DNA of 59,916 nt from a virus: UHGV virus genome UHGV-0126570. One strand, given 5' to 3'. Below, piece after piece: positions 23,802 through 36,860 of this stretch. A program made the translations under genes and the position numbers. Every line of letters begins with the position of its first letter. Position 1 is the first letter of the stretch. A model generated the notes under the pieces. That model ran no database searches and had not been told where the DNA came from. It saw nothing but the letters and a program-made list of their open reading frames with translations.

Positions 23802-23878
23802 GATGGTGTAGCTCAGTAGGATAGAGCAGCAGCCTTCTAAGCTGTCGGTCGGTGGTTCGAATCCACCCACCATCGCCA
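23802..23878 (+). tRNA. tRNA-Arg (anticodon UCU; decodes rare AGA)
   Basis: Manual cloverleaf: acceptor GATGGTG/CACCATC, D-arm GCTC-AGTAGGATA-GAGC, anticodon stem GCAGC/GCTGT with loop CTTCTAA, T-arm GGTGG-TTCGAAT-CCACC, encoded CCA. Confidence 0.8.
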
Positions 23879-23880
23879 AT

Positions 23881-23956
23881 GCCGGTTTAGCTCAGTTGGT
23901 AGAGCGCCTGCCTTGTAAGCAGGATGTCAGCGGTTCGAGTCCGTTAACCGGCACCA
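23881..23956 (+). tRNA. tRNA-Thr (anticodon UGU)
   Basis: Acceptor GCCGGTT/AACCGGC, D-arm GCTC-AGTTGGTA-GAGC, anticodon stem CCTGC/GCAGG with loop CTTGTAA, T-loop TTCGAGT, encoded CCA. Confidence 0.8.
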
Positions 23957-23964
23957 ACACAACA

Positions 23965-24039
23965 GGTAAGGGTATTTTGCGACGTCGGAGATCGCCGTGC
24001 TTGGCAGAGGGTTCGAATCCCTACGAAGTACCCTTACCG
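23965..24039 (+). ncRNA. Non-canonical tRNA-like element (acceptor-like stem plus T-loop, no canonical D/anticodon arms)
   Basis: GGTAAGG(G)...GGGTTCGAATCCC...CCCTTACC: a 7-8 bp terminal helix and a perfect T-loop consensus, but the interior cannot be folded into a cloverleaf. Either a tRNA pseudogene or an RNase P-type processed regulatory RNA. Confidence 0.3.
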
Positions 24040-24421
24040 TTGTGATGAAGTGCAGCTCTTTGAAGCAACCAGAAGATAAGCATCTGGCTTCACAACATAA
24101 ACCGCAGGAACGACCAATAAACGGTAGTCCGTATGGAGAATACCCCGTTGAGGAAGAGGCCTGGCCGGAACCGTAACCGGCACTACAACGTTGAGAACAC
24201 TGACGTAACGGGGTCATATCCCAATCTACGAATAAATGTTGCGTTGCAGCGTGACAACCAGTGTTCTCAACGTTGTGGTGGATTCGCAGACTGATGCGAT
24301 AGCTTTCTTGGATGTTAGGGAAATGCGGCCGCAAACCTTCCCTTTCGCGAGCGGTGATCGTCCGTAGTCCTAATTGGCTGCACCGTATGCCGGAGATTCA
24401 GTACCGGCCACCACAACGGCC

Positions 24422-24508
24422 GGAGAGTAGGGAGCATGGTGCTCAAGCGGTCTTGAAAACCGTCCCATTGCGCAAGCGATGATGGTTCGATTCCATTACT
24501 CTCCGCCA
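24422..24508 (+). tRNA. Probable type II tRNA, tRNA-Ser (anticodon UGA)-like
   Basis: Acceptor GGAGAGT/ACTCTCC, anticodon arm GCGGT-CTTGAAA-ACCGT (close to E. coli serT), 17-nt variable region, T-arm GATGG-TTCGATT-CCATT, encoded CCA. D-arm and variable arm are atypical. Confidence 0.55.
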
Positions 24509-24775
24509 GCGCAACGTTAAGAGTATTTGGCTAATTAAGCGAATGCCGGAAGCAGAACCGGATCAACAAATGCGTACAGGCGTCATCGCCGCCCAGCCAG
24601 CCAAGTGCTCTTACCATTGCGGTGAATGCGGCTAAGCGCACGCGGAACAGTTAAAACAATCCTCCTTAGTGGTTAAGTCAAACATCCCGGCGTTAATTGT
24701 TAACTGGTTAACGTCACCTGGAGGCACCAGGCACCGCAACCTAATAAATACGTCATGTTTATTGAGGGATAACCA

Positions 24776-25210
24776 ATGTTCGGTAAATTTTTCGGTAAGA
24801 AAGTCGCTTCAGCAAAAGTAGAGCTGAAAAGGGTTGAGAATCGCGATCTGATGGAGGCCATTATCGGTGGCTGTTTGTTGGTGTCTGCCGCAGATGGTGA
24901 AATCGAAAAGGAAGAAACAGCGAAACTTGATCAGCTTGTCCGCTCTAATCCTCGCTTAAGTCATTTTGGCAACGAAATTACCGCAACAATCACCCGTTTT
25001 ACTGAGCAACTGGAAGCTGGTTTCCGTGTTGGTCGCATGAATATCCTTCGCGAAATTGAAGATATCAAAAATGATCCAAAAGAAGCGGAAGAAGTATTCG
25101 TTAACATGCTGACGATTGCAGAAGCGGACGGTGAAATCGAGCCAGCAGAACACAAAGTACTGGAAGAAGTAGGCCGTCGTTTGGGCCTTCGTGTGGAAGA
25201 TTATCTGTAA
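24776..25210 (+). CDS. TerB-like domain protein (tellurite-resistance TerB / TciA-like)
   Basis: 144 aa with the paired acidic helices typical of the TerB fold (...LLVSAADGEIEKEE...LTIAEADGEIEPAEHKVLEEV); GAGGG RBS. Adjacent to the tRNA-Ile2 gene, as tciA is adjacent to trnI in P1. Confidence 0.65.
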   Translation: MFGKFFGKKVASAKVELKRVENRDLMEAIIGGCLLVSAADGEIEKEETAKLDQLVRSNPRLSHFGNEITATITRFTEQLEAGFRVGRMNILREIEDIKNDPKEAEEVFVNMLTIAEADGEIEPAEHKVLEEVGRRLGLRVEDYL

Positions 25211-25374
25211 TGATTGGCAAGGCGCGTATTGCGTGCGCCATTGGTTTTCTCGTTTTGTCCGTGCTGGTGGATTTCACCAGCAAAGTGATGTCGGTGTTGG
25301 CTGATGGGGCACTGGTTTCAGTAGCTGTGGTATTGCTATTGCCGATTATTAAAGCTGCGTTCAGGAACTCATGA
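25210..25374 (+). CDS. Small membrane protein (54 aa), not in ORF track
   Basis: Start overlaps the upstream stop (TAATG); MIGKARIACAIGFLVLSVLVDF...VAVVLLLPII has two hydrophobic helices. Confidence 0.4.
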   Translation: MIGKARIACAIGFLVLSVLVDFTSKVMSVLADGALVSVAVVLLLPIIKAAFRNS

Positions 25375-25484
25375 TGGATTTTTGGACGTATATTGATAAG
25401 AACCCTGGATGGTCTTTGCTATTTCTTCTTGTGATCGTATACGGAGTAGAACAAGTAGCGAAGAATCTCAGGCGTCGAAAATAA
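25371..25484 (+). CDS. Small membrane protein (37 aa), not in ORF track
   Basis: ATGA overlap with the previous ORF; MMDFWTYIDKNPGWSLLFLLVIVYGV...RRRK has a single TM and basic tail. Confidence 0.35.
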   Translation: MMDFWTYIDKNPGWSLLFLLVIVYGVEQVAKNLRRRK

Positions 25485-25493
25485 AAACTAATT

Positions 25494-25569
25494 GGCCCCT
25501 TAGCTCAGTGGTTAGAGCTGGCGACTCATAATCGCACGGTCACCGGTTCAAGTCCGGTAGGGGCCACCA
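25494..25569 (+). tRNA. tRNA-Ile2 (anticodon CAU, lysidine-type; decodes rare AUA)
   Basis: GGCCCCTTAGCTCAGTGGTTAGAGC...CTCATAA...GGTTCAAGTCC...AGGGGCCACCA; acceptor and D-arm essentially identical to E. coli ileX. Cannot be formally distinguished from elongator Met by sequence alone. Confidence 0.75.
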
Positions 25570-27098: not shown

Positions 27099-27491
27099 AT
27101 GGAGCATATCAGCAGCGCAGAAATTGCGGATATCATGATTAGGGCTGACTGCTATCTGACAGTCACCGAAATTACCACTCTAGCTAAAGAAAAATATCCT
27201 CACCTTCATGTTTCACGCGTAAGTGTAACCAACATCATTCGGCATTTTGTGCGGTCAAGCCGAGCTATTTGTGAGCTTGATGATCGTGTTTACCCACGGA
27301 AATACTGGTTGCATGGCCTGAACGGATATCAGTTCAAGGTGCGCGGGCGCACCCCTGAATACGGCAGTTTGCTGGTTAAAAACTGTAGCCGGAAGTCTGC
27401 AGAACTGGCGCGACAAGAGCAGCGCAAGCTGGTGGACATGGCTAATAAGCTGTGGAATGCCGCAGTTAAAAAGCGTGGTGTTGCTTTATGA
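27099..27491 (+). CDS. Hypothetical protein (130 aa)
   Basis: First gene after the operator-like palindrome; stop/start overlap with the pacA-like gene. Confidence 0.45.
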   Translation: MEHISSAEIADIMIRADCYLTVTEITTLAKEKYPHLHVSRVSVTNIIRHFVRSSRAICELDDRVYPRKYWLHGLNGYQFKVRGRTPEYGSLLVKNCSRKSAELARQEQRKLVDMANKLWNAAVKKRGVAL

Positions 27492-28852
27492 GCCTTGTTA
27501 ATTGGGAAGAGCACCGCGCCAAATTTATAGCGTTGCGTGAAGAAAAAGGGATCACCGTAAAGGAATACTGCGAGCAACACGACCTTAGCTTCAATACCGC
27601 CAGAAAGCATCTCAATATGAAAAAAAATGAGGTGCGGTCGCAGGTGAAGACTACAAAAAAAAGCACCAAATCACCTGAAAAAAAACGGGCAGGAAGAGCA
27701 AAAAAAAGGCCAGAAGAGGGTACAGAAACAACAAAATTTACAGAAACTGACAATTCACAGAGCGGAAGTTCTTTCCGGAGCATGCCGAGAAAGAAAACTT
27801 CGGATCATAAAAATAACGACAATAATAACAATGAGATAAAAGAATCTGTCAGGAGATCATTGCGCGAAAAAATGGCGAAAATGATCCCCACCGAAGATAA
27901 ATGCGCCTCAAAAATCGAGGGATCTTCAGCAATGATCCCTGGCGGTGCTGTGCAGCGTGCCACGTTGCCCACTACGAGTGTGGCTCGCGACATGATGAAG
28001 AACGGCGCAGAAGAGCACCTGCGGTTAGCAATTCAAATGGCGCAAGAACGCGCACTTCAGTACCAAAGCATTGTTGATCAGGAGGCCGAACGCCTACAGG
28101 CGGAGATAGACGCCCTGGGTGATGAACAGCCAGAAGGAATGCACCCTGGGCAGCGACTTCTCGGTCTAATCAGTGACGCGGCCTACTACATGAACGATTT
28201 TATCAGTAGGTTGGCAGCGATATATCAGTCCGAACAAAAGCTGCGACAGGGTGATGAAAAACTTCGTCAGGGTGCTCGCCAGCAAGCATTCAGAGAGGCC
28301 GAGGCCAGAGAAAAACTCGAATTAGCACGCCTACAGGCCGAACAGCGTGGCAAAGAGATTGAATATCGCATTGGCGCTGACGCACGCGCAGCCAGAGTTA
28401 TCGCCGCCGCTATACGTATGCGTGAGCGCGAGGAGCTGGACGATATCGGTGTTGCTGAATACATCGAGCGTCAGGGTGTCAGTGTCCCGGCTATCCTCGC
28501 GGCGCGCGCGGCGAAAGCTATCACTCTTCTCGAACCTCCAGTTTCTGACATCAATGATGTTGATGATGAACAGCTGGACAAAGAAGCGAAGGAGTTTGCA
28601 TCGCTTCAGGCTAACCATCCGCAATGGCTGGCAGAGCGCCGGGCGGATGTGGCAACCATTGTTGAAGATCTGGGGTGCGGAGATTACGACCACAATGGCG
28701 AGCGTAAGGCTGGGGAATTCGAGGCCAACGATGAAGAGTTGGACATTGACCCTTCGGCAACGGCTGAAATTTACGGTGATTATGATGCATCAGATGCAGG
28801 GTATGACGCCGGAGATGATGATATTGCGATAGAACCGCCGGAGGATGACTAA
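27488..28852 (+). CDS. pacA: PacA-like terminase small subunit (pac-recognition protein)
   Basis: Immediately upstream of and overlapping (TAATG) the large-terminase gene; Lys-rich N-terminal region; contains a cluster of GATC hexamers. Assignment is by synteny with P1. Confidence 0.5.
   Translation: MSLVNWEEHRAKFIALREEKGITVKEYCEQHDLSFNTARKHLNMKKNEVRSQVKTTKKSTKSPEKKRAGRAKKRPEEGTETTKFTETDNSQSGSSFRSMPRKKTSDHKNNDNNNNEIKESVRRSLREKMAKMIPTEDKCASKIEGSSAMIPGGAVQRATLPTTSVARDMMKNGAEEHLRLAIQMAQERALQYQSIVDQEAERLQAEIDALGDEQPEGMHPGQRLLGLISDAAYYMNDFISRLAAIYQSEQKLRQGDEKLRQGARQQAFREAEAREKLELARLQAEQRGKEIEYRIGADARAARVIAAAIRMREREELDDIGVAEYIERQGVSVPAILAARAAKAITLLEPPVSDINDVDDEQLDKEAKEFASLQANHPQWLAERRADVATIVEDLGCGDYDHNGERKAGEFEANDEELDIDPSATAEIYGDYDASDAGYDAGDDDIAIEPPEDD
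27802..27938. other. Candidate pac site (cluster of Dam-methylatable hexamers)
   Basis: Five GATC within 135 bp inside the pacA 5' region: GGATCA 27802, AGATCA 27854, TGATCC 27882, GGATCT 27920, TGATCC 27933. P1 pac consists of clustered TGATCA/G hexamers inside pacA. Confidence 0.3.
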
Positions 28853-30360
28853 TGGCTGGTGGGCGCAAGATTAAATGCGTCACCAGCGATCCACGCTGGC
28901 GCGATATGGTAATCAAATACCGCTACAACTTTACCCAGGCTGTTGTTGATATATTCGGGATGTTTCCCTCCCACCAGCAGCAGGAGATTATCCAGTCCGT
29001 ACAGCAAAAAGGGAGCAGAACCACTGTTACCTCTGGTCACGGTACAGGGAAATCGTCGCTAACGGCTATGTTGTTGCTGATTTATTTGATTCTGTTCCCC
29101 GATGCCCGTGTCATCATTGTTGCTAACAAAATAGGTCAGGTTAAGACAGGTGTATTCAAATACGTTAAACAGTATTGGGCGAATGCCGTTAAGCGTCATG
29201 GGTGGTTACAGACCTATTTTGTCCTGTCTGACACCATGTTTTATGAACGCTCTCGAAAGGGGATCTGGGAAGTTCTCTGCAAAGGCTATCGACTCGGTAA
29301 CGAAGAAGCTCTGGCGGGGGAGCACGCGGCACATTTGCTTCTAATTCTGGATGAAGCATCAGGTATATCTGATAAAGCGATCGGCGTAATGACTGGCGCT
29401 CTGACTGAAGAAGATAACCGAATGTTGATGCTATCCCAGCCAACAAGGCCAAGTGGTTATTTCTACGATTCGCACCATTCTCAAGCTAAAACCCCAGACA
29501 ACCCGAAAGGGATCTGGACAGCAATTGTTCTTAACTCAGAAGAATCACCGTTCGTCACACCACAATTCATCAGGCAGAAACTCCTGGAATATGGCGGGCG
29601 CGATTCTATTGAGTACATGGCCAAGGTTCTTGGTCAGTTTCCTCGGGAGATTAACGGCTATTTGCTTGGTCGTGATGAATGCGATCGCGCTGCGCGGCGC
29701 AAGGTGTTGTTGGAGAAAAACTGGGGATGGGTGGCTACTGCTGACGTTGGTAACGGGCGAGACAAGTCAGTTCTTAATATCTGTAAAGTGTCTGGTCACC
29801 GGGAAAAGCGGCGTGTTGTTAACTTTAAGGTAATGGAAATGCCAGGGACTATGGACCCGCTGGCTTTTGCTGACTTTATATACAACGAATGCACGCCGGA
29901 TAAATACCCGAATATTACAATCGCGGTTGACGCAGACGGTTTTGGTTCAGATACCTGTGCGCAGCTGGTGCGCCGTGGGGCTAATCCGGTACGGATTCGG
30001 TGGGGGAAACCCATGTTTTCGAACAAAGACAAGGAGCGTTTTGTTAACCAGCGTGCCTACGCAAATATTATGGCTCGTGATGCCATAAAGTCAGGTCGTA
30101 TGCGAATAGACAGCGACCCTAAAACGGCAGAGCAAGCGTCAAAAATCCCCTTTTTACTTAATGAAGAAGGGAAGATGGCGATGATGCGCAAGGAGCACAT
30201 GCGGCAAAAGCTGAACATCAAATCACCTGACCGATGGGATACCTACTGCTTTACAATGCTGGTGGACTATGTTCCTGCTAATGAAGATATCGGCGCTGAA
30301 ATGGCTACCTTCCGCGATCAGGTTCTTGCAGATGTAGAAATGCCAGATCTGGATATTTGA
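28852..30360 (+). CDS. pacB: PacB-like terminase large subunit
   Basis: 502 aa; Walker A TSGHGTGKS, Walker B LLLILDEAS, C-terminal acidic nuclease-type motifs (ATADVGNGRD, AVDADGFG). Confidence 0.85.
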   Translation: MAGGRKIKCVTSDPRWRDMVIKYRYNFTQAVVDIFGMFPSHQQQEIIQSVQQKGSRTTVTSGHGTGKSSLTAMLLLIYLILFPDARVIIVANKIGQVKTGVFKYVKQYWANAVKRHGWLQTYFVLSDTMFYERSRKGIWEVLCKGYRLGNEEALAGEHAAHLLLILDEASGISDKAIGVMTGALTEEDNRMLMLSQPTRPSGYFYDSHHSQAKTPDNPKGIWTAIVLNSEESPFVTPQFIRQKLLEYGGRDSIEYMAKVLGQFPREINGYLLGRDECDRAARRKVLLEKNWGWVATADVGNGRDKSVLNICKVSGHREKRRVVNFKVMEMPGTMDPLAFADFIYNECTPDKYPNITIAVDADGFGSDTCAQLVRRGANPVRIRWGKPMFSNKDKERFVNQRAYANIMARDAIKSGRMRIDSDPKTAEQASKIPFLLNEEGKMAMMRKEHMRQKLNIKSPDRWDTYCFTMLVDYVPANEDIGAEMATFRDQVLADVEMPDLDI

Positions 30361-30431: not shown

Positions 30432-31469
30432 TTACCAGAGTTTAGCGGCGTGCTGTGTTTGGGAGAAAGTGAACCCGTAACGTTCTTCTATGGTTTTACC
30501 GTATCTTTTCCGCGCGTCTGTCAGTTTTATGCCTGTCAGGTCATCTCCGGATGTCATCATTACGTCTAACAACTCCAGATCCATTTTATTCAGTCTCGCC
30601 ATCGCTTCGCGTGCTGTCTGTATTTTACGCTCAATGATATGGCGAATAGCCGGATCGGCTTCCTCAAGCATTTTGGCTGATTTGTTCTTTAAGCTCTCAT
30701 TGCGGATGTCGATGTTTCGCAAGATGTATGACTTCGCAACATAGCTTGGTTGGTGTTTCTCCAGATCGCGAACGCGATAGAGACTAAAGTCACCAAGCAG
30801 GCCGCAAGGTATCGACTCAACCCCAGAATAAATAGTAATGCTGCGACGTTCGCCGACATTATTAACAACGGGCACTGTGGTGTTCGGAAGTTTTGCGAAC
30901 ACTAAGGCTCCGTGTGCGCCTACCCTGAATCGTGACAGAGCATTGCTGCCTTCAATGTTTGTTGTAAGCACTACATCTGTGTATCCATCTTTGCGCGCCC
31001 GGTAAACTTCCCCTTCAGGTTCTGATGCGAAAAAACGGCGCTCTTCTTCAAGTGCACCAACAATCTGCGAAAATATCTTGTTTTTCAGGCTTTTCTTTAT
31101 AATTGCATCATATTTTTTGAGCAGATTTTCGCGCGTAAATGAGCGGGTGGTGGTCGCGCTTTGCACAACAATATGCGTGCTTTGATTTGTGTCCTCGATA
31201 ATGAATGGGATCGGAGAATATACAGACTCAACAATGTTAGACGCTTTGCCGTCAGCGTTACGGCACAAGTCAACAAAGGCTTTCCATTCTGTGAGGCACT
31301 TTTCAGCTTCTTCTAGCACATTCTGATCATGTGTTAGTGCAACATGGCGGAATTCCTCGCCGGAATAACTGGTATCATGGAAAACAGAGTTTGCGACCAC
31401 CAGCTCTTTCCACCGTTCAGCGGTTTGCAGGAACCGTTTGTACTCTTTCTCGATCGACTTCTTACTCAT
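30432..31469 (-). CDS. Hypothetical protein (345 aa); candidate immunity-region regulator
   Basis: Only gene between pacB and the lox-like site, divergent from cre; three operator-like motifs lie in its upstream region (31488-31497, 31572-31582, 31666-31674). Repressor role is positional inference only. Confidence 0.3.
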   Translation of the reverse strand: MSKKSIEKEYKRFLQTAERWKELVVANSVFHDTSYSGEEFRHVALTHDQNVLEEAEKCLTEWKAFVDLCRNADGKASNIVESVYSPIPFIIEDTNQSTHIVVQSATTTRSFTRENLLKKYDAIIKKSLKNKIFSQIVGALEEERRFFASEPEGEVYRARKDGYTDVVLTTNIEGSNALSRFRVGAHGALVFAKLPNTTVPVVNNVGERRSITIYSGVESIPCGLLGDFSLYRVRDLEKHQPSYVAKSYILRNIDIRNESLKNKSAKMLEEADPAIRHIIERKIQTAREAMARLNKMDLELLDVMMTSGDDLTGIKLTDARKRYGKTIEERYGFTFSQTQHAAKLW

Positions 31470-31669: not shown

Positions 31670-31703
31670 CTAACTTTAGATAATTGGCATTATTTAAAGT
31701 TAG
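31670..31703. other. lox-like recombination site (13-bp inverted arms, 8-bp spacer)
   Basis: CTAACTTTAGATA-ATTGGCAT-TATTTAAAGTTAG; arms are 12/13 inverted matches and resemble loxP arms (ATAACTTCGTATA); 152 bp upstream of the Cre-like gene. Confidence 0.6.
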
Positions 31704-31854
31704 GCTATAATCATGGGTAGATGATCAGTATTGACATCACTGAAAATACGTGCCTCGAATCAAAGGCTTGAATCTTGAAAATTAACTTATAGCTACCCTG
31801 TCATTTTTATATTTTTCGCGTAGCGTCATCTGTATATAGAGGTTAAATAGTTTC

Positions 31855-32883
31855 ATGAGTGAATTAATTATCTCTGGCAGTTCCGGTGGTTTTCTGCGCA
31901 ACATTGGCAAAGAGTACCAGGAAGCCGCAGAAAACTTTATGCGGTTCATGAATGACCAGGGGGCTTATGCGCCGAATACTTTGCGCGATCTCCGGTTAGT
32001 GTTTCACTCCTGGGCGAGATGGTGTCACGCTCGCCAGCTCGCCTGGTTCCCGATCTCACCAGAGATGGCCCGCGAGTATTTTCTTCAGCTGCATGATGCC
32101 GATCTGGCTTCGACCACCATTGATAAGCACTACGCCATGCTGAACATGCTGCTTTCGCATTGTGGCCTTCCGCCACTTTCGGATGATAAAAGTGTTTCTC
32201 TGGCTATGCGGCGCATCCGGCGCGAAGCGGCAACTGAAAAAGGCGAACGAACAGGCCAGGCTATACCGCTGCGGTGGGACGATCTGAAACTGCTCGACGT
32301 CCTGTTGTCCAGGTCAGAACGGCTGGTGGACCTGCGCAACCGGGCTTTTCTCTTTGTTGCATACAATACGCTGATGCGTATGTCGGAAATCTCGCGTATT
32401 CGTGTAGGAGATCTGGACCAAACAGGTGACACTGTCACGCTACATATTTCACACACGAAGACAATAACGACCGCCGCCGGGCTTGATAAGGTGCTTTCCC
32501 GTCGCACTACCGCTGTGCTGAATGACTGGCTGGATGTTTCCGGGCTTCGCGAACATCCTGACGCAGTGCTGTTCCCGCCGATACACCGTAGCAATAAGGC
32601 CAGGATCACGACAACGCCCCTTACTGCACCTGCAATGGAGAAAATATTCAGCGACGCCTGGGTGTTGCTGAATAAAAGAGATGCTACGCCAAACAAAGGA
32701 AGATACCGGACGTGGACCGGGCATAGTGCACGCGTCGGGGCCGCTATTGATATGGCTGAAAAGCAGGTGTCTATGGTGGAGATCATGCAGGAAGGAACCT
32801 GGAAGAAACCGGAAACACTTATGCGGTATCTTCGCCGTGGCGGCGTGTCTGTGGGGGCTAATAGCCGCCTGATGGATTCGTAA
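31855..32883 (+). CDS. cre: Cre-like tyrosine site-specific recombinase
   Basis: Alignable along its length with P1 Cre: SVSLAMRRIRRE, LRNRAFLFVAYNTLMRMSEISRIRVGDL, GHSARVGAAIDMA, C-terminal Tyr region. Confidence 0.85.
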   Translation: MSELIISGSSGGFLRNIGKEYQEAAENFMRFMNDQGAYAPNTLRDLRLVFHSWARWCHARQLAWFPISPEMAREYFLQLHDADLASTTIDKHYAMLNMLLSHCGLPPLSDDKSVSLAMRRIRREAATEKGERTGQAIPLRWDDLKLLDVLLSRSERLVDLRNRAFLFVAYNTLMRMSEISRIRVGDLDQTGDTVTLHISHTKTITTAAGLDKVLSRRTTAVLNDWLDVSGLREHPDAVLFPPIHRSNKARITTTPLTAPAMEKIFSDAWVLLNKRDATPNKGRYRTWTGHSARVGAAIDMAEKQVSMVEIMQEGTWKKPETLMRYLRRGGVSVGANSRLMDS

Positions 32884-34279: not shown

Positions 34280-34957
34280 ATGAATAACAAGCCAACGAAA
34301 GAGCTTTTTAAGCTCCTTCCCAAATACAAAGCTCACAAAAACGTTAGTGCATCGAAAATCAAAAATGTTGTTATTTTCGGAGTAACTGATACCCCACTTT
34401 GGGGCAGCATCGAACTCGTTGAACCTAAAGGGGCAACAGTTTGTGTTGACGCAATGTTTTTACAAAAACACCGACCAAAAACTGGCGGGTATCTGATCGT
34501 TTATGAAAACGGTTATCTGTTCTATGCCCCGGAGAAACCATTTGAGGAACGCTATGGCCTGGTTAACGACGCCTCCAAAAATGGAACCACGGTCATCATT
34601 ACGGATGACAACGGCGAGATGATTAATCTTACCGGGAGCGTAACTATTTCTGCTGGTGGCATCACCACCCAGCAAGAAGAAATCGACCTTGAAGCAGCCG
34701 ACTTTTCTGACGCGCTGATGTGGCTGAAGGATGGCAAGAAAGTTGCTCGACGCGGGTGGAACGGCGAAAACCAATTTTGCTGGCTGGTTCCTGAAGGACA
34801 GTACCCGGCACGAATGGAAGCCATTAAGGGATATTTCCCCGGCGACCTCGTTCCGTATGGTGCTTATTTCGCCTTAAAAAATGCACAAGGTGTAGTTGTT
34901 CCGTGGGTGCCTTCAGTTGGCGACCTGCTGGCCTGTGACTGGTTTGTTGTGGAGTGA
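34280..34957 (+). CDS. Fusion protein: unknown N-terminal domain plus C-terminal DUF2829-like (Tad2-like) domain
   Basis: C-terminal DALMWLKDGKKVARRGWNGENQFCWLVPEG ... VVPWVPSVGDLLACDWFVVE follows the DUF2829 signature (A..W.K.GKKV.RRGWNG ... PW.pS..DLLA.DW.vvE) as recalled from memory. Confidence 0.45.
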   Translation: MNNKPTKELFKLLPKYKAHKNVSASKIKNVVIFGVTDTPLWGSIELVEPKGATVCVDAMFLQKHRPKTGGYLIVYENGYLFYAPEKPFEERYGLVNDASKNGTTVIITDDNGEMINLTGSVTISAGGITTQQEEIDLEAADFSDALMWLKDGKKVARRGWNGENQFCWLVPEGQYPARMEAIKGYFPGDLVPYGAYFALKNAQGVVVPWVPSVGDLLACDWFVVE

Positions 34958-34963
34958 TTTGAC

Positions 34964-35731
34964 ATGGAAAGCACTAAAACAATTCAATACCGCTTGCGTA
35001 ATGGCCTGCTGGTGGCTGTTAACGCCGACATGTCACTGCCGTTTGACACGATTGAACGCACTATCATGACGTATCTCGGCTTTAATGAAGAGCTGAATGA
35101 AGAGCATGGCGTAGCTATATGGAGTGATGCAGACAGCGGCGTTCGTCGTTACATCACCGCCAGGGGCAAAGACTACTCTCTGGATGAACTGTTTGCCCTT
35201 GCGCAGTCTTTCGAATGTGTAGCATTAGACCTGTTTAATGATCCTGCTATAGCGCAACGACTTATACGCGAGCTTGGGCTATCCGTTACACCAATTATAT
35301 TTAAAAATGGCAGCCTGACTGGCACATGGCGCGTAGAACGCATCTCAAACTACCTTCCATATAACCGACAGTTAAATGGAGTAATCTCCGGCGTTAATCA
35401 GCCCGTAGCGTGTGAAAATGTAAACCTAGTTGTCGCTGTTTTGGCAACCGCATGTCGTGTTATCGGTTTGGCTAAACAGGCATTTATTCATTTCCCAAAT
35501 GGTGCAGAAGGTAGCGCAGAGATTATCGCGTGTGATTTCGAATTTACCTGGATGCTACGCGAATATCTGGACCAAACAGTATTCCGTGCCGAAGAACTGG
35601 ATATGTATATCACGTCAACGATTCCAGACGATGTGCGAGCTGAAGCAATCGCTACAGCCAGGGCGAAATGCCGTGCGGCGATTGCAGAACAGGCCAAAGA
35701 AGAAGTTAAGGAAGTGGCAGATGGCGACTAA
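34964..35731 (+). CDS. Hypothetical protein (255 aa), partner of the terminase paralog
   Basis: Translationally coupled to the downstream TerL-like gene; no similarity to PacA. Confidence 0.45.
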   Translation: MESTKTIQYRLRNGLLVAVNADMSLPFDTIERTIMTYLGFNEELNEEHGVAIWSDADSGVRRYITARGKDYSLDELFALAQSFECVALDLFNDPAIAQRLIRELGLSVTPIIFKNGSLTGTWRVERISNYLPYNRQLNGVISGVNQPVACENVNLVVAVLATACRVIGLAKQAFIHFPNGAEGSAEIIACDFEFTWMLREYLDQTVFRAEELDMYITSTIPDDVRAEAIATARAKCRAAIAEQAKEEVKEVADGD

Positions 35732-36815
35732 GAGCAATATTTATAAAGATCCGCGCTGGCTGTCGCTGGTGGAGAAATATAAAGACAATTGGGTACTGGC
35801 AGCAAAAGAATTGTTTGATATTGATTTAAGCCACCAGCAACAACAAATTGTTGAAGCTATACAGCCCAATAATGCAAAAGCTACTGTCACCACTCCGTAT
35901 GGGATCGGACGACCGCAAGTGCTTGCTGTTATTAGTACCCTTTATACGATTATGTATCCTGATTCCCGGACAGTAATTGTTTATCCAAAATCAAATGTTT
36001 GCAAAAGAGGAATTGTTGCATATGTGTGGCAATGTTGGGAGGCATTGCTGAAAAAACAACCTTTTATCATTGAGTATTTTAAGGTCGGTGATAGCGGTCT
36101 GATGTTCAATGAATTTTGGGGAATGTGCTTTTGTAACTACCGCCTTAACTATGAAGATAGCATTGCAGGTCACTACGCCGACCATCTTTTATTCATTATT
36201 GTGGATTCCGCACATATCAGCGATCGGGCATACAGCATTGTGTGGGCAAGCATGACTAGTGGTGATTCACGCATATTGCTCACTTCAATTCCGTCACCAG
36301 AGGAAATAGGCTTTTTTTATGATTCACATCATGGACGTGCTTTAGCTGAAGATAATCCGAGTGGTGTATATAAAGCCATTAAGCTGAGCGCGGAGGATTC
36401 ACCATTTATTACCCAAGAATATCTTGATCATTTTGCCGAAAGGTATGGCGGGCGAAATAGTGATGACTATCGTCGTATGATTCTTGGTGAGTTCCCTGGT
36501 ATTAGGGAGGCTGTTCTTGAATCAGATATGCCGAAGACAATGCGCTTTTCGATGCCTGATGGTAGTGAATGGACAATGCCATTACGAGTGATAGCCCGGC
36601 ATCATGCGCAGCACCACGCCAAAAAACATGGCGTCACGACATTAGAATGGTTGAAATCGCACACTATTCCACTCTTCACTGCAGATCACAATGCTATCGT
36701 TGAGTGGGCAAAAACAATTCCGTGGGAGCATGTCGCTGAATATGCTCACATGCTAAAACCGCCGAAAGACAGGCGCGAAATTAGCTGGCTGACAGCCGAA
36801 AAAATCATTGAATGA
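35721..36815 (+). CDS. Terminase large-subunit (PacB) N-domain paralog with degenerate Walker A/B and no nuclease domain
   Basis: Aligns with PacB residues ~10-300 (DPRW..., SHQQQ, FYDSHH, SPF, YGGR, FP), but Walker A is TTPYGIGRP instead of TSGHGTGKS and Walker B LLFIIVDSAH instead of LLLILDEAS; protein ends after ~364 aa. Confidence 0.6.
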   Translation: MATKSNIYKDPRWLSLVEKYKDNWVLAAKELFDIDLSHQQQQIVEAIQPNNAKATVTTPYGIGRPQVLAVISTLYTIMYPDSRTVIVYPKSNVCKRGIVAYVWQCWEALLKKQPFIIEYFKVGDSGLMFNEFWGMCFCNYRLNYEDSIAGHYADHLLFIIVDSAHISDRAYSIVWASMTSGDSRILLTSIPSPEEIGFFYDSHHGRALAEDNPSGVYKAIKLSAEDSPFITQEYLDHFAERYGGRNSDDYRRMILGEFPGIREAVLESDMPKTMRFSMPDGSEWTMPLRVIARHHAQHHAKKHGVTTLEWLKSHTIPLFTADHNAIVEWAKTIPWEHVAEYAHMLKPPKDRREISWLTAEKIIE

Positions 36816-36860
36816 TATCAACAAAAAGCCCGCCTGGTCTGGCGGGCTTCTTTATGCGCC

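What the first reader, a model, noticed from the sequence alone, without database searches (positions are those of the whole stretch)
35721..36815. Terminase large-subunit paralog with degenerate ATPase motifs and no nuclease domain
The product aligns with the PacB-like terminase (28852-30360) over ~300 residues, but Walker A reads TTPYGIGRP instead of TSGHGTGKS (Lys replaced by Arg-Pro) and Walker B reads IIVDSAH instead of ILDEAS (catalytic Glu replaced by Ser). The protein stops before the nuclease domain. It is coupled to an upstream 255-aa gene unrelated to PacA. A pseudo-terminase like this could act as a packaging regulator or dominant-negative competitor, or in packaging interference against other phages.
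Basis: seen in the sequence. Interest (0 to 1): 0.7.

Follow-up and report, generated by a model that had tools for sequence, protein, structure and literature searches.

The report
Dead terminase copy in P1-like phage-plasmid
This phage-plasmid carries, besides its working DNA-packaging enzyme PacB, a second, well-preserved copy that has lost every catalytic residue and its DNA-cutting half and gained an unrelated small domain, so it probably works by binding rather than by catalysis; its target is not known.

Summary
ORF 35721-36815 (364 aa) matches the ATPase half of the window's PacB (37% identity over 258 aa, E 3e-62). The Walker A Lys, Walker B Asp and catalytic Glu are all replaced, and the nuclease domain is absent.

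- Residues ~270-364 are a separate domain. Elsewhere it is a widespread stand-alone ~100-aa early phage protein with no Pfam family and no structural match.
- The gene belongs to an old monophyletic clade of dead PacB N-domains (bootstrap 0.985) in P1/D6-like elements. All members lack the catalytic residues. Both domains are under purifying selection (pN/pS about 0.1).
- It is an optional cassette after isaA. About a third of isaA-bearing plasmids carry it; reference P1 and D6 do not. Its N-domain is a sharply bounded allele (53% aa identity in an otherwise 97-100% identical backbone) that does not co-vary with the resident PacA/PacB.

It is therefore not a decaying pseudogene, an active terminase or a core packaging component. 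Conservation has moved from the catalytic centre to the lid subdomain. I infer a non-enzymatic mimic that engages PacB's partners. An immunity-directed role and a replication/recombination role remain open. Function is untested and I found no description in the literature.

The parts
35721..36815 (+). psiTerL: 364-aa catalytically dead, nuclease-less PacB paralog with an added C-terminal domain
   Evidence: ORF. BLASTP to PacB E 3e-62. phrog_5902 over the full length, E 4e-164. pN/pS 0.095, p 5e-12.
35721..36500 (+). N-domain (aa 1-260): fold of the terminase large-subunit ATPase domain, homologous to PacB 10-264
   Evidence: (phrog_2, E 7.7e-9). pN/pS 0.076. Between 35684 and 36480 it is a divergent allele in otherwise near-identical relatives.
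35889..35918 (+). Walker A remnant TTPYGIGRPQ (R64 at the Lys position, P65 at the Ser/Thr position)
   Evidence: The Lys position reads R/E/Q/M/C/T/I across the clade, whereas K is invariant in 36 true TerLs.
36186..36215 (+). Walker B remnant LLFIIVDSAH (V161 at the Asp position, D162 at the catalytic Glu position)
   Evidence: The Asp position reads V/I/T/P/L/S and the Glu position D/N/E/H/Q/K across the clade.
36528..36812 (+). C-terminal domain (aa ~270-364): a divergent member of a widespread family of stand-alone ~100-aa early phage proteins
35708..35714 (+). Shine-Dalgarno AAGGAAG, 6 nt upstream of the ATG, inside the 3' end of isaA
   Evidence: Read directly from the sequence.
34964..35731 (+). 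isaA homolog (255 aa), the upstream translationally coupled gene
36823..36853 (.). Bidirectional intrinsic terminator (stem GCCCGCC/GGCGGGC, A-run before it, T-run after it) between the convergent psiTerL and humD
31684..31711 (+). Sigma-70-like promoter (11 of 12 matches) upstream of the cre-like gene; the only strong + strand promoter match before psiTerL, so it is the candidate operon promoter
   Evidence: This is a consensus match only; function is not shown.
28852..30360 (+). pacB, the functional terminase large subunit and the evolutionary source of the paralog
   Evidence: Terminase_6N and phrog_2. The profile hits Sf6 gp2 nuclease (1e-15), T4 gp17 and the P74-26 TerL ATPase.

Best explanation
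What it is (shown, confidence above 0.9). This is a functional gene for a pseudo-enzyme. It is a copy of the ATPase half of the P1-family terminase large subunit PacB. The copy has lost the Walker A Lys, the Walker B Asp, the catalytic Glu and the whole nuclease domain. In this lineage it is fused to a ~95-aa domain that exists elsewhere as a stand-alone early phage protein. It belongs to one old clade of dead PacB N-domains that sit in variable accessory slots of P1/D6-like phage-plasmids.

How it most likely works (inferred, about 0.35-0.4; the confidence value given for this explanation refers to this mechanistic part). It can neither hydrolyse ATP nor cut DNA, so it acts by binding. Selection has kept the lid subdomain (FYDSHH ... 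SxEDSPxV ... YGGRxSxxY ... LGxFP), motif III and the N-terminal PacB-clade signature, while the catalytic segments relaxed. These are surfaces that terminase large subunits use to contact neighbouring subunits, the small subunit and the portal. The most likely mechanism is therefore molecular mimicry of PacB. The protein would occupy a site on PacB's partners (the PacB ring, the PacA-pac complex or the portal) and so restrain, delay or block pac cleavage and packaging. This could act on the element's own packaging timing or on related co-resident or superinfecting P1-like phages. The C-terminal domain would add a second, still unknown contact.

Because the gene is optional and its N-domain is an exchangeable allele, this is an accessory, competition-type function. 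It is not part of the core packaging machine.
For: - Homology to PacB, E 3e-62.
- All catalytic residues are lost in every clade member, while 36 true TerLs keep K67 and E168 invariant.
- The nuclease domain is absent exactly from the domain boundary.
- The dead clade is monophyletic (bootstrap 0.985) and groups with P1-type PacB (0.99).
- Purifying selection acts on both domains: 28 synonymous against 10 non-synonymous changes, pN/pS 0.095, p 5e-12.
- The ORF is intact in at least 163 plasmids.
- Conservation has shifted. Identity in the Walker A and B segments is 66-70% within the PacB clade but 37-41% within the dead clade. The lid subdomain stays at 50% against 54%, and it is the segment most similar between the two clades.
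- The gene is a cassette after isaA, with homology breaking exactly at the isaA stop in P1 and at window ~35704 in E. coli plasmids. It is present in about a third of isaA-bearing plasmids (163 against 474).
- Expression signals are in place: SD, translational coupling and a terminator.
Against: - No interaction has been tested or modelled here.
- The N-domain allele does not co-vary with the resident PacA/PacB. Alleles 53% identical sit beside PacB 97.6% and PacA 93.6% identical, and near-identical alleles sit beside PacA only 74% identical. This argues against a tight cognate partnership, although PacB itself is too conserved (92-98%) for the test to be decisive.
- A subunit that poisons packaging would also harm its own phage unless expression or specificity prevents that, and nothing here shows how.
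- Regulatory contexts differ between lineages: a cre-type operon here, but after ssb in the P1-type homolog; in reference P1 the ssb promoter is C1-controlled.
- The C-terminal domain's relatives lie in replication/recombination or early accessory regions, not in packaging modules.
- Neighbouring genes point towards host-conflict functions (Tad2-like).
Confidence: 0.4

Rival explanations
1. Immunity-directed mimic. The dead TerL-fold domain acts in the conflict with host defences or as a prophage-borne defence, not on packaging. One version is that it engages or blocks a sensor that recognises terminase (Avs1-3, Upx). Another is that it is an exclusion factor whose variable N-domain is the specificity module and whose conserved C-domain is the effector or anchor.
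For: - It sits in an accessory operon directly after a Tad2-like gene (PF11195, E 1.8e-22) and isaA. In P1-type elements it lies next to the dar/ddr anti-restriction block.
- Other clade members lie among DUF551/Ead/theta/UmuC accessory genes or after a Ref-like nuclease.
- It shows presence/absence polymorphism and a sharply bounded divergent allele that is independent of the resident terminase.
- Terminase ATPase domains are established targets of Avs1-3 and Upx. T4 vs.8, an ATPase-only terminase paralog, triggers EcAvs2, and its authors suggest such proteins may be anti-defence factors (PMC13601566).
Against: - There are no PADLOC hits and no homology to any known anti-defence protein.
- Per PMC13601566, SeAvs3 recognises terminase active-site features and EcAvs2 contacts the terminase-bound ATP and active-site Mg2+. 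A protein lacking the Lys and Asp is therefore unlikely to be bound as a decoy.
- For Upx the ATPase domain alone activates the sensor, so a simple decoy would trigger it rather than block it.
- Loss of the motifs could equally be a way to avoid being sensed.
Confidence: 0.3
2. Early replication/recombination accessory factor. The function is set by the C-terminal domain, which acts with replication or recombination proteins. The dead TerL fold serves only as a DNA-binding or oligomerising scaffold.
For: Relatives of the C-domain are found in these places:
- just downstream of DnaB-type helicases in JK004 and lambdoid prophages;
- next to RecT/YqaJ;
- fused to DUF1351 plus a coiled coil beside recombinase, exonuclease and SSB in Xanthomonas phage SAC.

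The P1-type psiTerL follows ssb-isaA, and the P0147 member follows a Ref-like RecA-dependent nuclease.
Against: - Most clade members (P0144, P0147, P0148, P0151, P0007) lack the C-domain altogether, so the core function lies in the TerL-like domain.
- Those neighbourhoods are also general slots for early accessory genes.
- The fused C-domain has diverged at the family's most conserved motif (NNMNWSDV reads KTIPWEHV).
- No DNA-binding fold was recognised.
Confidence: 0.15
3. Decaying duplicate with no function (a pseudogene that still has an open frame).
For: All catalytic residues and the nuclease domain are lost. The gene is absent from reference P1 and D6.
Against: - pN/pS is 0.095 overall, 0.076 in the N-domain and 0.11 in the C-domain, with p from 1e-6 to 1e-12.
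- The frame is intact in at least 163 plasmids and in nine subfamilies that are only 35-54% identical.
- The SD, coupling and terminator are preserved.
Confidence: 0.03
4. An active but unconventional ATPase or terminase that uses non-canonical residues (for example R64 in place of Lys and D162 in place of Glu).
For: The P-loop glycines (G-x-G) and the QQ motif upstream of Walker A (in TerLs this is an adenine-contacting motif; that assignment is background knowledge, not tested here) are retained. One allele keeps a Glu at the catalytic position (P0004).
Against: The Lys position varies freely (R/E/Q/M/C/T/I). The Asp position is hydrophobic or Pro. The Glu position reads D/N/E/H/Q/K. No substitute residue is conserved across the clade. 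There is no nuclease domain and no TerS-like partner.
Confidence: 0.02

Closest known systems
PacB, terminase large subunit of P1/D6-type phages (window 28852-30360)
   Same: Homologous N-terminal ATPase-fold domain (37% identity, E 3e-62). Shared PacB-clade signatures: DPRW..KY..W, the QQ motif, LAG, FYDSHH, SxEDSPxV and YGGRxS..Y..LGxFP. The same elements carry both genes, and psiTerL is derived from PacB by duplication.
   Different: No Walker A Lys, Walker B Asp or catalytic Glu, and no RNase H-like nuclease domain. It is not preceded by pacA. It is optional rather than universal, and it has an added unrelated C-terminal domain.
T4 vs.8 (terminase ATPase-domain-only paralog; PMC13601566)
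   Same: A phage-encoded protein that consists of a terminase large-subunit ATPase domain without the nuclease domain. It is encoded outside the packaging module and its function is unknown.
   Different: vs.8 keeps canonical Walker A (GGRQSGKS) and Walker B (IIDE) motifs and triggers EcAvs2. It derives from T4-type TerL and has no detectable sequence similarity to psiTerL. It is an analogue of independent origin.
PHROG 5902 (unknown function)
   Same: psiTerL matches it end to end (positions 2-358 of 359, E 4e-164), including the C-domain. This PHROG in effect contains this family.
   Different: The PHROG carries no annotation and also scores PacB highly (E 1e-149). The database therefore does not separate the dead paralog from the enzyme.
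Packaging-interference proteins of phage satellites (SaPI Ppi, PICI Rpp; named from my own knowledge, not tested here)
   Same: If the best explanation is right, the logic is the same: a non-enzymatic protein that binds a terminase component and redirects or blocks packaging.
   Different: Those proteins are not terminase homologs. They are encoded by satellites rather than by the phage itself, and they target the small subunit. No sequence relationship was examined or is expected.
Stand-alone ~100-aa early phage proteins (C-terminal part of phrog_17928; e.g. Cronobacter phage JK004 gene_35)
   Same: The C-terminal ~95 aa of psiTerL are homologous to them (38-40% identity, profile E down to 1e-40). 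The predicted fold is shared: a beta-hairpin, four helices and a small sheet.
   Different: Those proteins are independent genes in nin-like, early-left or replication regions. The fused copy has lost the family's NNMNWSDV motif.

Membership tests
Functional terminase large subunit (TerL) | N-terminal ASCE ATPase-fold domain homologous to TerL | tested here: met
   BLASTP to PacB E 3e-62. phrog_2 'terminase large subunit' E 7.7e-9.
Functional terminase large subunit (TerL) | Walker A with the invariant Lys (G-K-S/T) | tested here: not met
   The sequence reads GIGRP. K67 is invariant in 36 PacB-like TerLs and reads R/E/Q/M/C/T/I in the dead clade.
Functional terminase large subunit (TerL) | Walker B Asp followed by the catalytic Glu | tested here: not met
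   V161-D162 lie opposite D167-E168. E168 is invariant in true TerLs.
Functional terminase large subunit (TerL) | C-terminal RNase H-like nuclease domain | tested here: not met
   There is no similarity to PacB after about aa 260. The PacB-like profile hits the Sf6 gp2 nuclease from profile position 252. The psiTerL C-terminus belongs to a different family and has no nuclease-like fold match.
Functional terminase large subunit (TerL) | Encoded next to its small-subunit gene | tested here: not met
   The upstream gene is IsaA, which shows no similarity to PacA. The IsaA model is not TerS-like.
Dead PacB N-domain clade (defined here; corresponds to PHROG 5902) | Groups with the other nuclease-less, motif-less PacB N-domain proteins to the exclusion of true PacB/TerL | tested here: met
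   NJ bootstrap 0.985 for nine members including the window protein. Full-length phrog_5902 match.
Dead PacB N-domain clade (defined here; corresponds to PHROG 5902) | Maintained by purifying selection, not decaying | tested here: met
   pN/pS 0.095, p 5e-12; both domains are individually significant.
T4 vs.8-type ATPase-only terminase paralogs | Sequence homology to vs.8 and conserved Walker A/B motifs | tested here: not met
   BLASTP finds no significant match. vs.8 has GKS and IIDE; psiTerL has neither.
Known anti-phage defence systems (PADLOC-DB 2.0) | Match to any component model | tested here: not met
   No hits for psiTerL, IsaA or the Tad2-like protein at E up to 0.01.
Terminase-directed decoy or inhibitor of Avs1-3/Upx | Binds the sensor and alters its activation | not testable with these tools
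   Only indirect evidence is available. SeAvs3 recognises terminase active-site features and EcAvs2 contacts terminase-bound ATP, both of which psiTerL lacks (PMC13601566).
Packaging-interference or dominant-negative terminase subunit | Physical interaction with PacA, PacB or portal, and an effect on packaging | not testable with these tools
   Only indirect evidence is available. The lid subdomain and motif III are retained. There is no co-variation with the resident PacA/PacB.

The most novel reading that the evidence does not exclude
P1-like phage-plasmids carry a family of pseudo-terminase 'weapons'. These would be exchangeable, catalytically dead mimics of the PacB ATPase domain. They would either poison the packaging motor of rival P1-like elements or manipulate terminase-sensing host immunity. 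The divergent N-domain alleles would be specificity variants kept by an arms race, and the fused early-protein domain would be an effector or anchor. This would be the first terminase-derived pseudo-enzyme with a role in conflict.
Probability: 0.25. Interest if true: 0.8.

Novelty: new variant of a known kind. Interest (0 to 1): 0.55.

Why it matters
Terminase large subunits are treated as single-copy, universally catalytic hallmark genes. They are also prime targets of bacterial pattern-recognition immunity (Avs1-3, Upx).

This work identifies a conserved, diversified and selected family of catalytically dead, nuclease-less terminase copies. It is present in about a third of isaA-bearing P1-like plasmids in PLSDB (163 of 474 records) and in at least 36 of 5,426 complete E. 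coli genomes counted for this allele alone. That shows the fold has been recruited for a non-enzymatic job.

Practical consequences:
- It gives a testable entry point into regulation of, or interference with, headful packaging in P1-type phages, which are widely used transducers and carriers of resistance genes.
- It gives a natural, motif-less terminase ATPase domain for asking what terminase sensors really recognise.
- Public records label some of these genes 'terminase large subunit', and PHROG 5902 does not separate them from PacB. Genome annotation and marker-gene phylogenies of phage-plasmids can therefore be misled.
- The C-terminal domain defines a large, unnamed family of small early phage proteins (at least 637 clusters).

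Tried and rejected
- Pfam, NCBIfam and PADLOC gave no significant family for psiTerL or IsaA.
- A PDB sequence search with psiTerL or PacB alone found nothing. Only a 36-sequence PacB-like profile reached solved terminases.
- I tested whether P1 IsaB is a remnant of psiTerL. It is not: there is no similarity, and the P1/MH422554 homology simply breaks at the isaA stop and resumes at hxr.
- I tested whether IsaA is an obligatory partner. This is rejected. IsaA occurs without psiTerL in D6, P1 and the Enterobacter and Klebsiella elements. Other clade members follow a Ref-like nuclease, a radical SAM protein or small ORFs.
- I tested co-variation of the psiTerL allele with the resident PacA/PacB and found none.
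- T4 vs.8 is not homologous at the sequence level.
- Six literature searches found no description of a PacB paralog or pseudo-terminase in P1-like elements.
- The longer ORF from TTG 35430 (461 aa) is rejected as the gene. It overlaps isaA out of frame, and the ATG at 35721 has the SD and matches all homolog starts.
Full report
**Setting.** The window is a D6-like member of the P1 family of phage-plasmids. It carries pacA (27488-28852), pacB (28852-30360), a C1-type repressor, a Dre/Cre-type recombinase (31855-32883) and humD. Its closest phage record is Escherichia phage D6. The gene order around the finding is promoter-like site 31684-31711, cre-like gene, two small ORFs, dut, a Tad2-like gene (34280-34957; PF11195, E 1.8e-22), isaA (34964-35731), the finding (35721-36815), then a bidirectional terminator (36823-36853) facing humD.

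**Check of the observation.**
- The 364-aa product aligns with the window's PacB over residues 7-259 against 10-264, at 37% identity, E 3e-62.
- R64 and P65 stand where PacB has K67 and S68. V161 and D162 stand where PacB has D167 and E168.
- In an alignment of 36 PacB-like terminases, K67 and E168 are invariant. The profile of that alignment reaches solved terminases: Sf6 gp2 nuclease domain 1e-15, T4 gp17, and the P74-26 TerL ATPase. Its weak ATPase-domain sub-alignment to Sf6 gp2 (4.5 bits) places the Sf6 Walker A and B opposite these positions.
- Similarity to PacB ends at the ATPase/nuclease boundary.
- The start is ATG 35721, with AAGGAAG 6 nt upstream and an 11-nt overlap with the isaA stop.
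- The upstream protein is unrelated to PacA. It is 48% identical to P1 IsaA.
The catalytic Glu is replaced by Asp and the Walker B Asp by Val. The protein does not end at the boundary; it continues into a separate domain.

**The C-terminal domain.**
- Residues ~270-364 match the C-terminal part of phrog_17928.
- By tblastn they match a 98-aa stand-alone gene of Cronobacter phage JK004 and the C-terminus of a 470-aa protein (DUF1351 plus coiled coil) of Xanthomonas phage SAC.
- A four-sequence profile found 637 proteins. Almost all are 95-115 aa, and none has a Pfam family.
- These homologs lie in early regions of lambdoid prophages: after DnaB-type helicases and before ninB, next to RecT/YqaJ, or in the early-left arm before int.
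- The fused copy has diverged at the family's most conserved motif: NNMNWSDV reads KTIPWEHV.

**A family, not a one-off.**
- tblastn finds full-length homologs in 163 plasmid records. There are 34 at 97.5% identity or more, 10 at about 65%, and about 119 at about 50%.
- Two P1-type phage records also carry it. There the gene sits between ssb-isaA and hxr (52% identity).
- In reference P1 the homology breaks exactly at the isaA stop and resumes at hxr, with IS1 and the unrelated isaB in between.
- Reference D6 has pdcA/doc/phd after isaA instead.
- A HMMER scan of 1.84 billion representatives added further nuclease-less proteins of 252-268 aa (P0144, P0147, P0148, P0151, P0177) and one of 444 aa with a different C-terminus (P0149).
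- In every one of these the Lys position reads R/E/Q/M/C/T/I, the Walker B Asp position V/I/T/P/L/S, and the Glu position D/N/E/H/Q/K. Every true TerL in the same alignment keeps GK[ST] and [DE]EA.
- Nine of the dead proteins form one clade (NJ bootstrap 0.985) that groups with P1-type PacB (0.99). P0177 is an independent case.
- Their contexts are accessory regions, at least two of them P1-like, with different upstream genes: a Ref-like RecA-dependent nuclease on a contig with a Cre-like integrase, a radical SAM protein, or small ORFs among DUF551/Ead/theta/UmuC genes.
- A close relative (P0007, 75% identical) lacks the C-domain but occupies the same slot after isaA.

**Selection.** Between the window and a 97.5%-identical plasmid copy there are 28 synonymous and 10 non-synonymous differences (pN/pS 0.095, binomial p 5e-12). 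The N-domain (0.076) and the C-domain (0.11) are each significant. The gene is therefore maintained for a function that needs neither ATP hydrolysis nor DNA cleavage.

**Cassette behaviour.**
- Compared with plasmid pRHB39-C21_3, nucleotide identity is 93-100% (mostly 97-100%) through isaA. It drops to 38-77% from 35684 to about 36480, which covers the IsaA tail plus the psiTerL N-domain (53% aa identity). It returns to 98% at the start of the C-domain and falls again only near the 3' end of the gene and in the downstream spacer.
- In that same comparison PacB is 97.6% identical and PacA 93.6%.
- Conversely, two plasmids with 98.9%-identical psiTerL have PacA only 74% identical and PacB 92% identical.
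- Among 5,426 complete E. coli genomes, 103 carry D6-type isaA, always on plasmids. Of these, 36 carry this isaA-psiTerL allele. Many of the rest match only up to window ~35704, that is, isaA alone.
- In PLSDB, IsaA is found in 474 records against 163 for full-length psiTerL. IsaA also occurs alone in Enterobacter and Klebsiella elements.
- isaA is non-essential in P1 (PMC10695390). The isaA-IS1-isaB interval is a recognised variable region of P1-like plasmids (PMC6906374).

**What is retained.**
- By segment, the PacB clade is most conserved around Walker A and B (66-70% mean pairwise identity). The dead clade falls to 37-41% there.
- The dead clade keeps the lid subdomain at 50% (54% in the PacB clade). 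That subdomain is the part most similar between the two clades (44-46%).
- Residues nearly invariant in both clades include the QQ motif, the P-loop glycines, A155-G156 (the 'AG' of the LAG motif), S-x-P of motif III, G-x-FY-x-SHH, L-x-x-E-[DE]-SP, GG, Y255 and G-x-F.

**Interpretation.** Three things are shown: the identity as a PacB-derived pseudo-enzyme, its membership of a selected and diversified clade, and its optional, allele-swapping cassette nature.

The mechanism is inferred. Selection has preserved the non-catalytic surfaces of a terminase ATPase domain. From general knowledge of TerL motors, the lid subdomain and N-terminal region mediate subunit-subunit, small-subunit and portal contacts. 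The most economical mechanism is therefore mimicry of PacB towards its partners, with an accessory regulatory or interfering effect on packaging. I put this at about 0.35-0.4.

The lack of co-variation with the resident terminase, the Tad2-like neighbour and the arms-race-like allele pattern keep an immunity-directed role close behind, at about 0.3. Published structures weigh against a simple decoy: SeAvs3 recognises terminase active-site features, EcAvs2 contacts the terminase-bound ATP, and the ATPase domain alone activates Upx (PMC13601566).

The genomic company of the C-domain supports a third, replication/recombination-linked possibility at about 0.15. It is weakened by the many clade members that lack the C-domain.

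Decay and residual catalysis are effectively excluded.

**Comparison with what is known.** The nearest described analogue is T4 vs.8. It is an ATPase-only terminase paralog of unknown function that keeps its Walker motifs and triggers EcAvs2. It is not sequence-related to psiTerL. PHROG 5902 already contains this family but is unannotated, and it also scores PacB highly. Some public records call these genes 'terminase large subunit'. My literature searches found no paper describing a PacB paralog or pseudo-terminase.

**Verdict.** This is a real and uncommon feature: a new variant (a pseudo-enzyme with a domain fusion) of a very well-known kind of protein. It is of moderate to high interest, and its function is still open.

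Noticed in passing
window 34280-34957 (+): A 225-aa protein with a C-terminal Thoeris anti-defence 2-like domain (PF11195, E 1.8e-22) and an extra N-terminal region (phrog_11049). The order Tad2-like then isaA is conserved in D6-like elements of Escherichia, Enterobacter and Klebsiella. Reference D6 has only the C-terminal half (146 aa).
   Followed up: partly
[not shown]
   Followed up: partly
window 36528-36812; loci L004 4001-4297, L005 1882-3294, L009-L015: The C-terminal domain defines a large, unnamed family of ~100-aa early phage/prophage proteins (at least 637 clusters; motif MPDGS.W.VP..VIA..RA..YA ... PLF ... DWA.NNMNWSDV). The family has no Pfam entry and no solved structure. Its members lie near DnaB, RecT/YqaJ or int.
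   Followed up: partly
L024 6336-7792; L020 5027-6795; L022 7001-8335: Other dead PacB N-domain genes have different upstream partners. P0147 overlaps the stop of a Ref-like RecA-dependent nuclease gene. P0148 follows a radical SAM gene. P0149 (444 aa) has a different ~180-aa C-terminal extension and sits among DUF551, Ead/Ea22, pol III theta and UmuC-like genes.
   Followed up: partly
window 36816-36860: Here psiTerL is followed directly by humD across one bidirectional terminator. Close relatives (L006, L007, L008) have a phd/doc addiction module inserted between the two genes, so this window lacks phd/doc at that site.
   Followed up: partly
window 35430-36815 and public protein P0002: The mechanical ORF starts at TTG 35430 (461 aa), and a public 438-aa entry is named 'Terminase large subunit'. 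Both over-extend the gene into isaA. The name is misleading for a protein that lacks the catalytic motifs and the nuclease domain.
   Followed up: yes
window 27488-28852 (+): PacA ends in a strongly acidic tail (...DDDIAIEPPEDD), and its stop overlaps the pacB start. IsaA also ends in an acidic tail overlapping the psiTerL start. This parallel in layout might be meaningful or might be coincidence.
   Followed up: no
window 23802-25569 (+): Four tRNA genes: Arg-tct, Thr-tgt, Ser-tga and Met-cat.
   Followed up: no
window 30432-31469 (-) and 31855-32883 (+): A 345-aa repressor whose positional counterpart in relative L028 (same length, same place upstream of cre) carries PF27008 (P7 C1 repressor family); the window ORF itself was not scanned. 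Next to it is a recombinase that I recognise by eye as the Dre recombinase of phage D6, with a strong sigma-70-like promoter match at 31684-31711 between the two genes.
   Followed up: no
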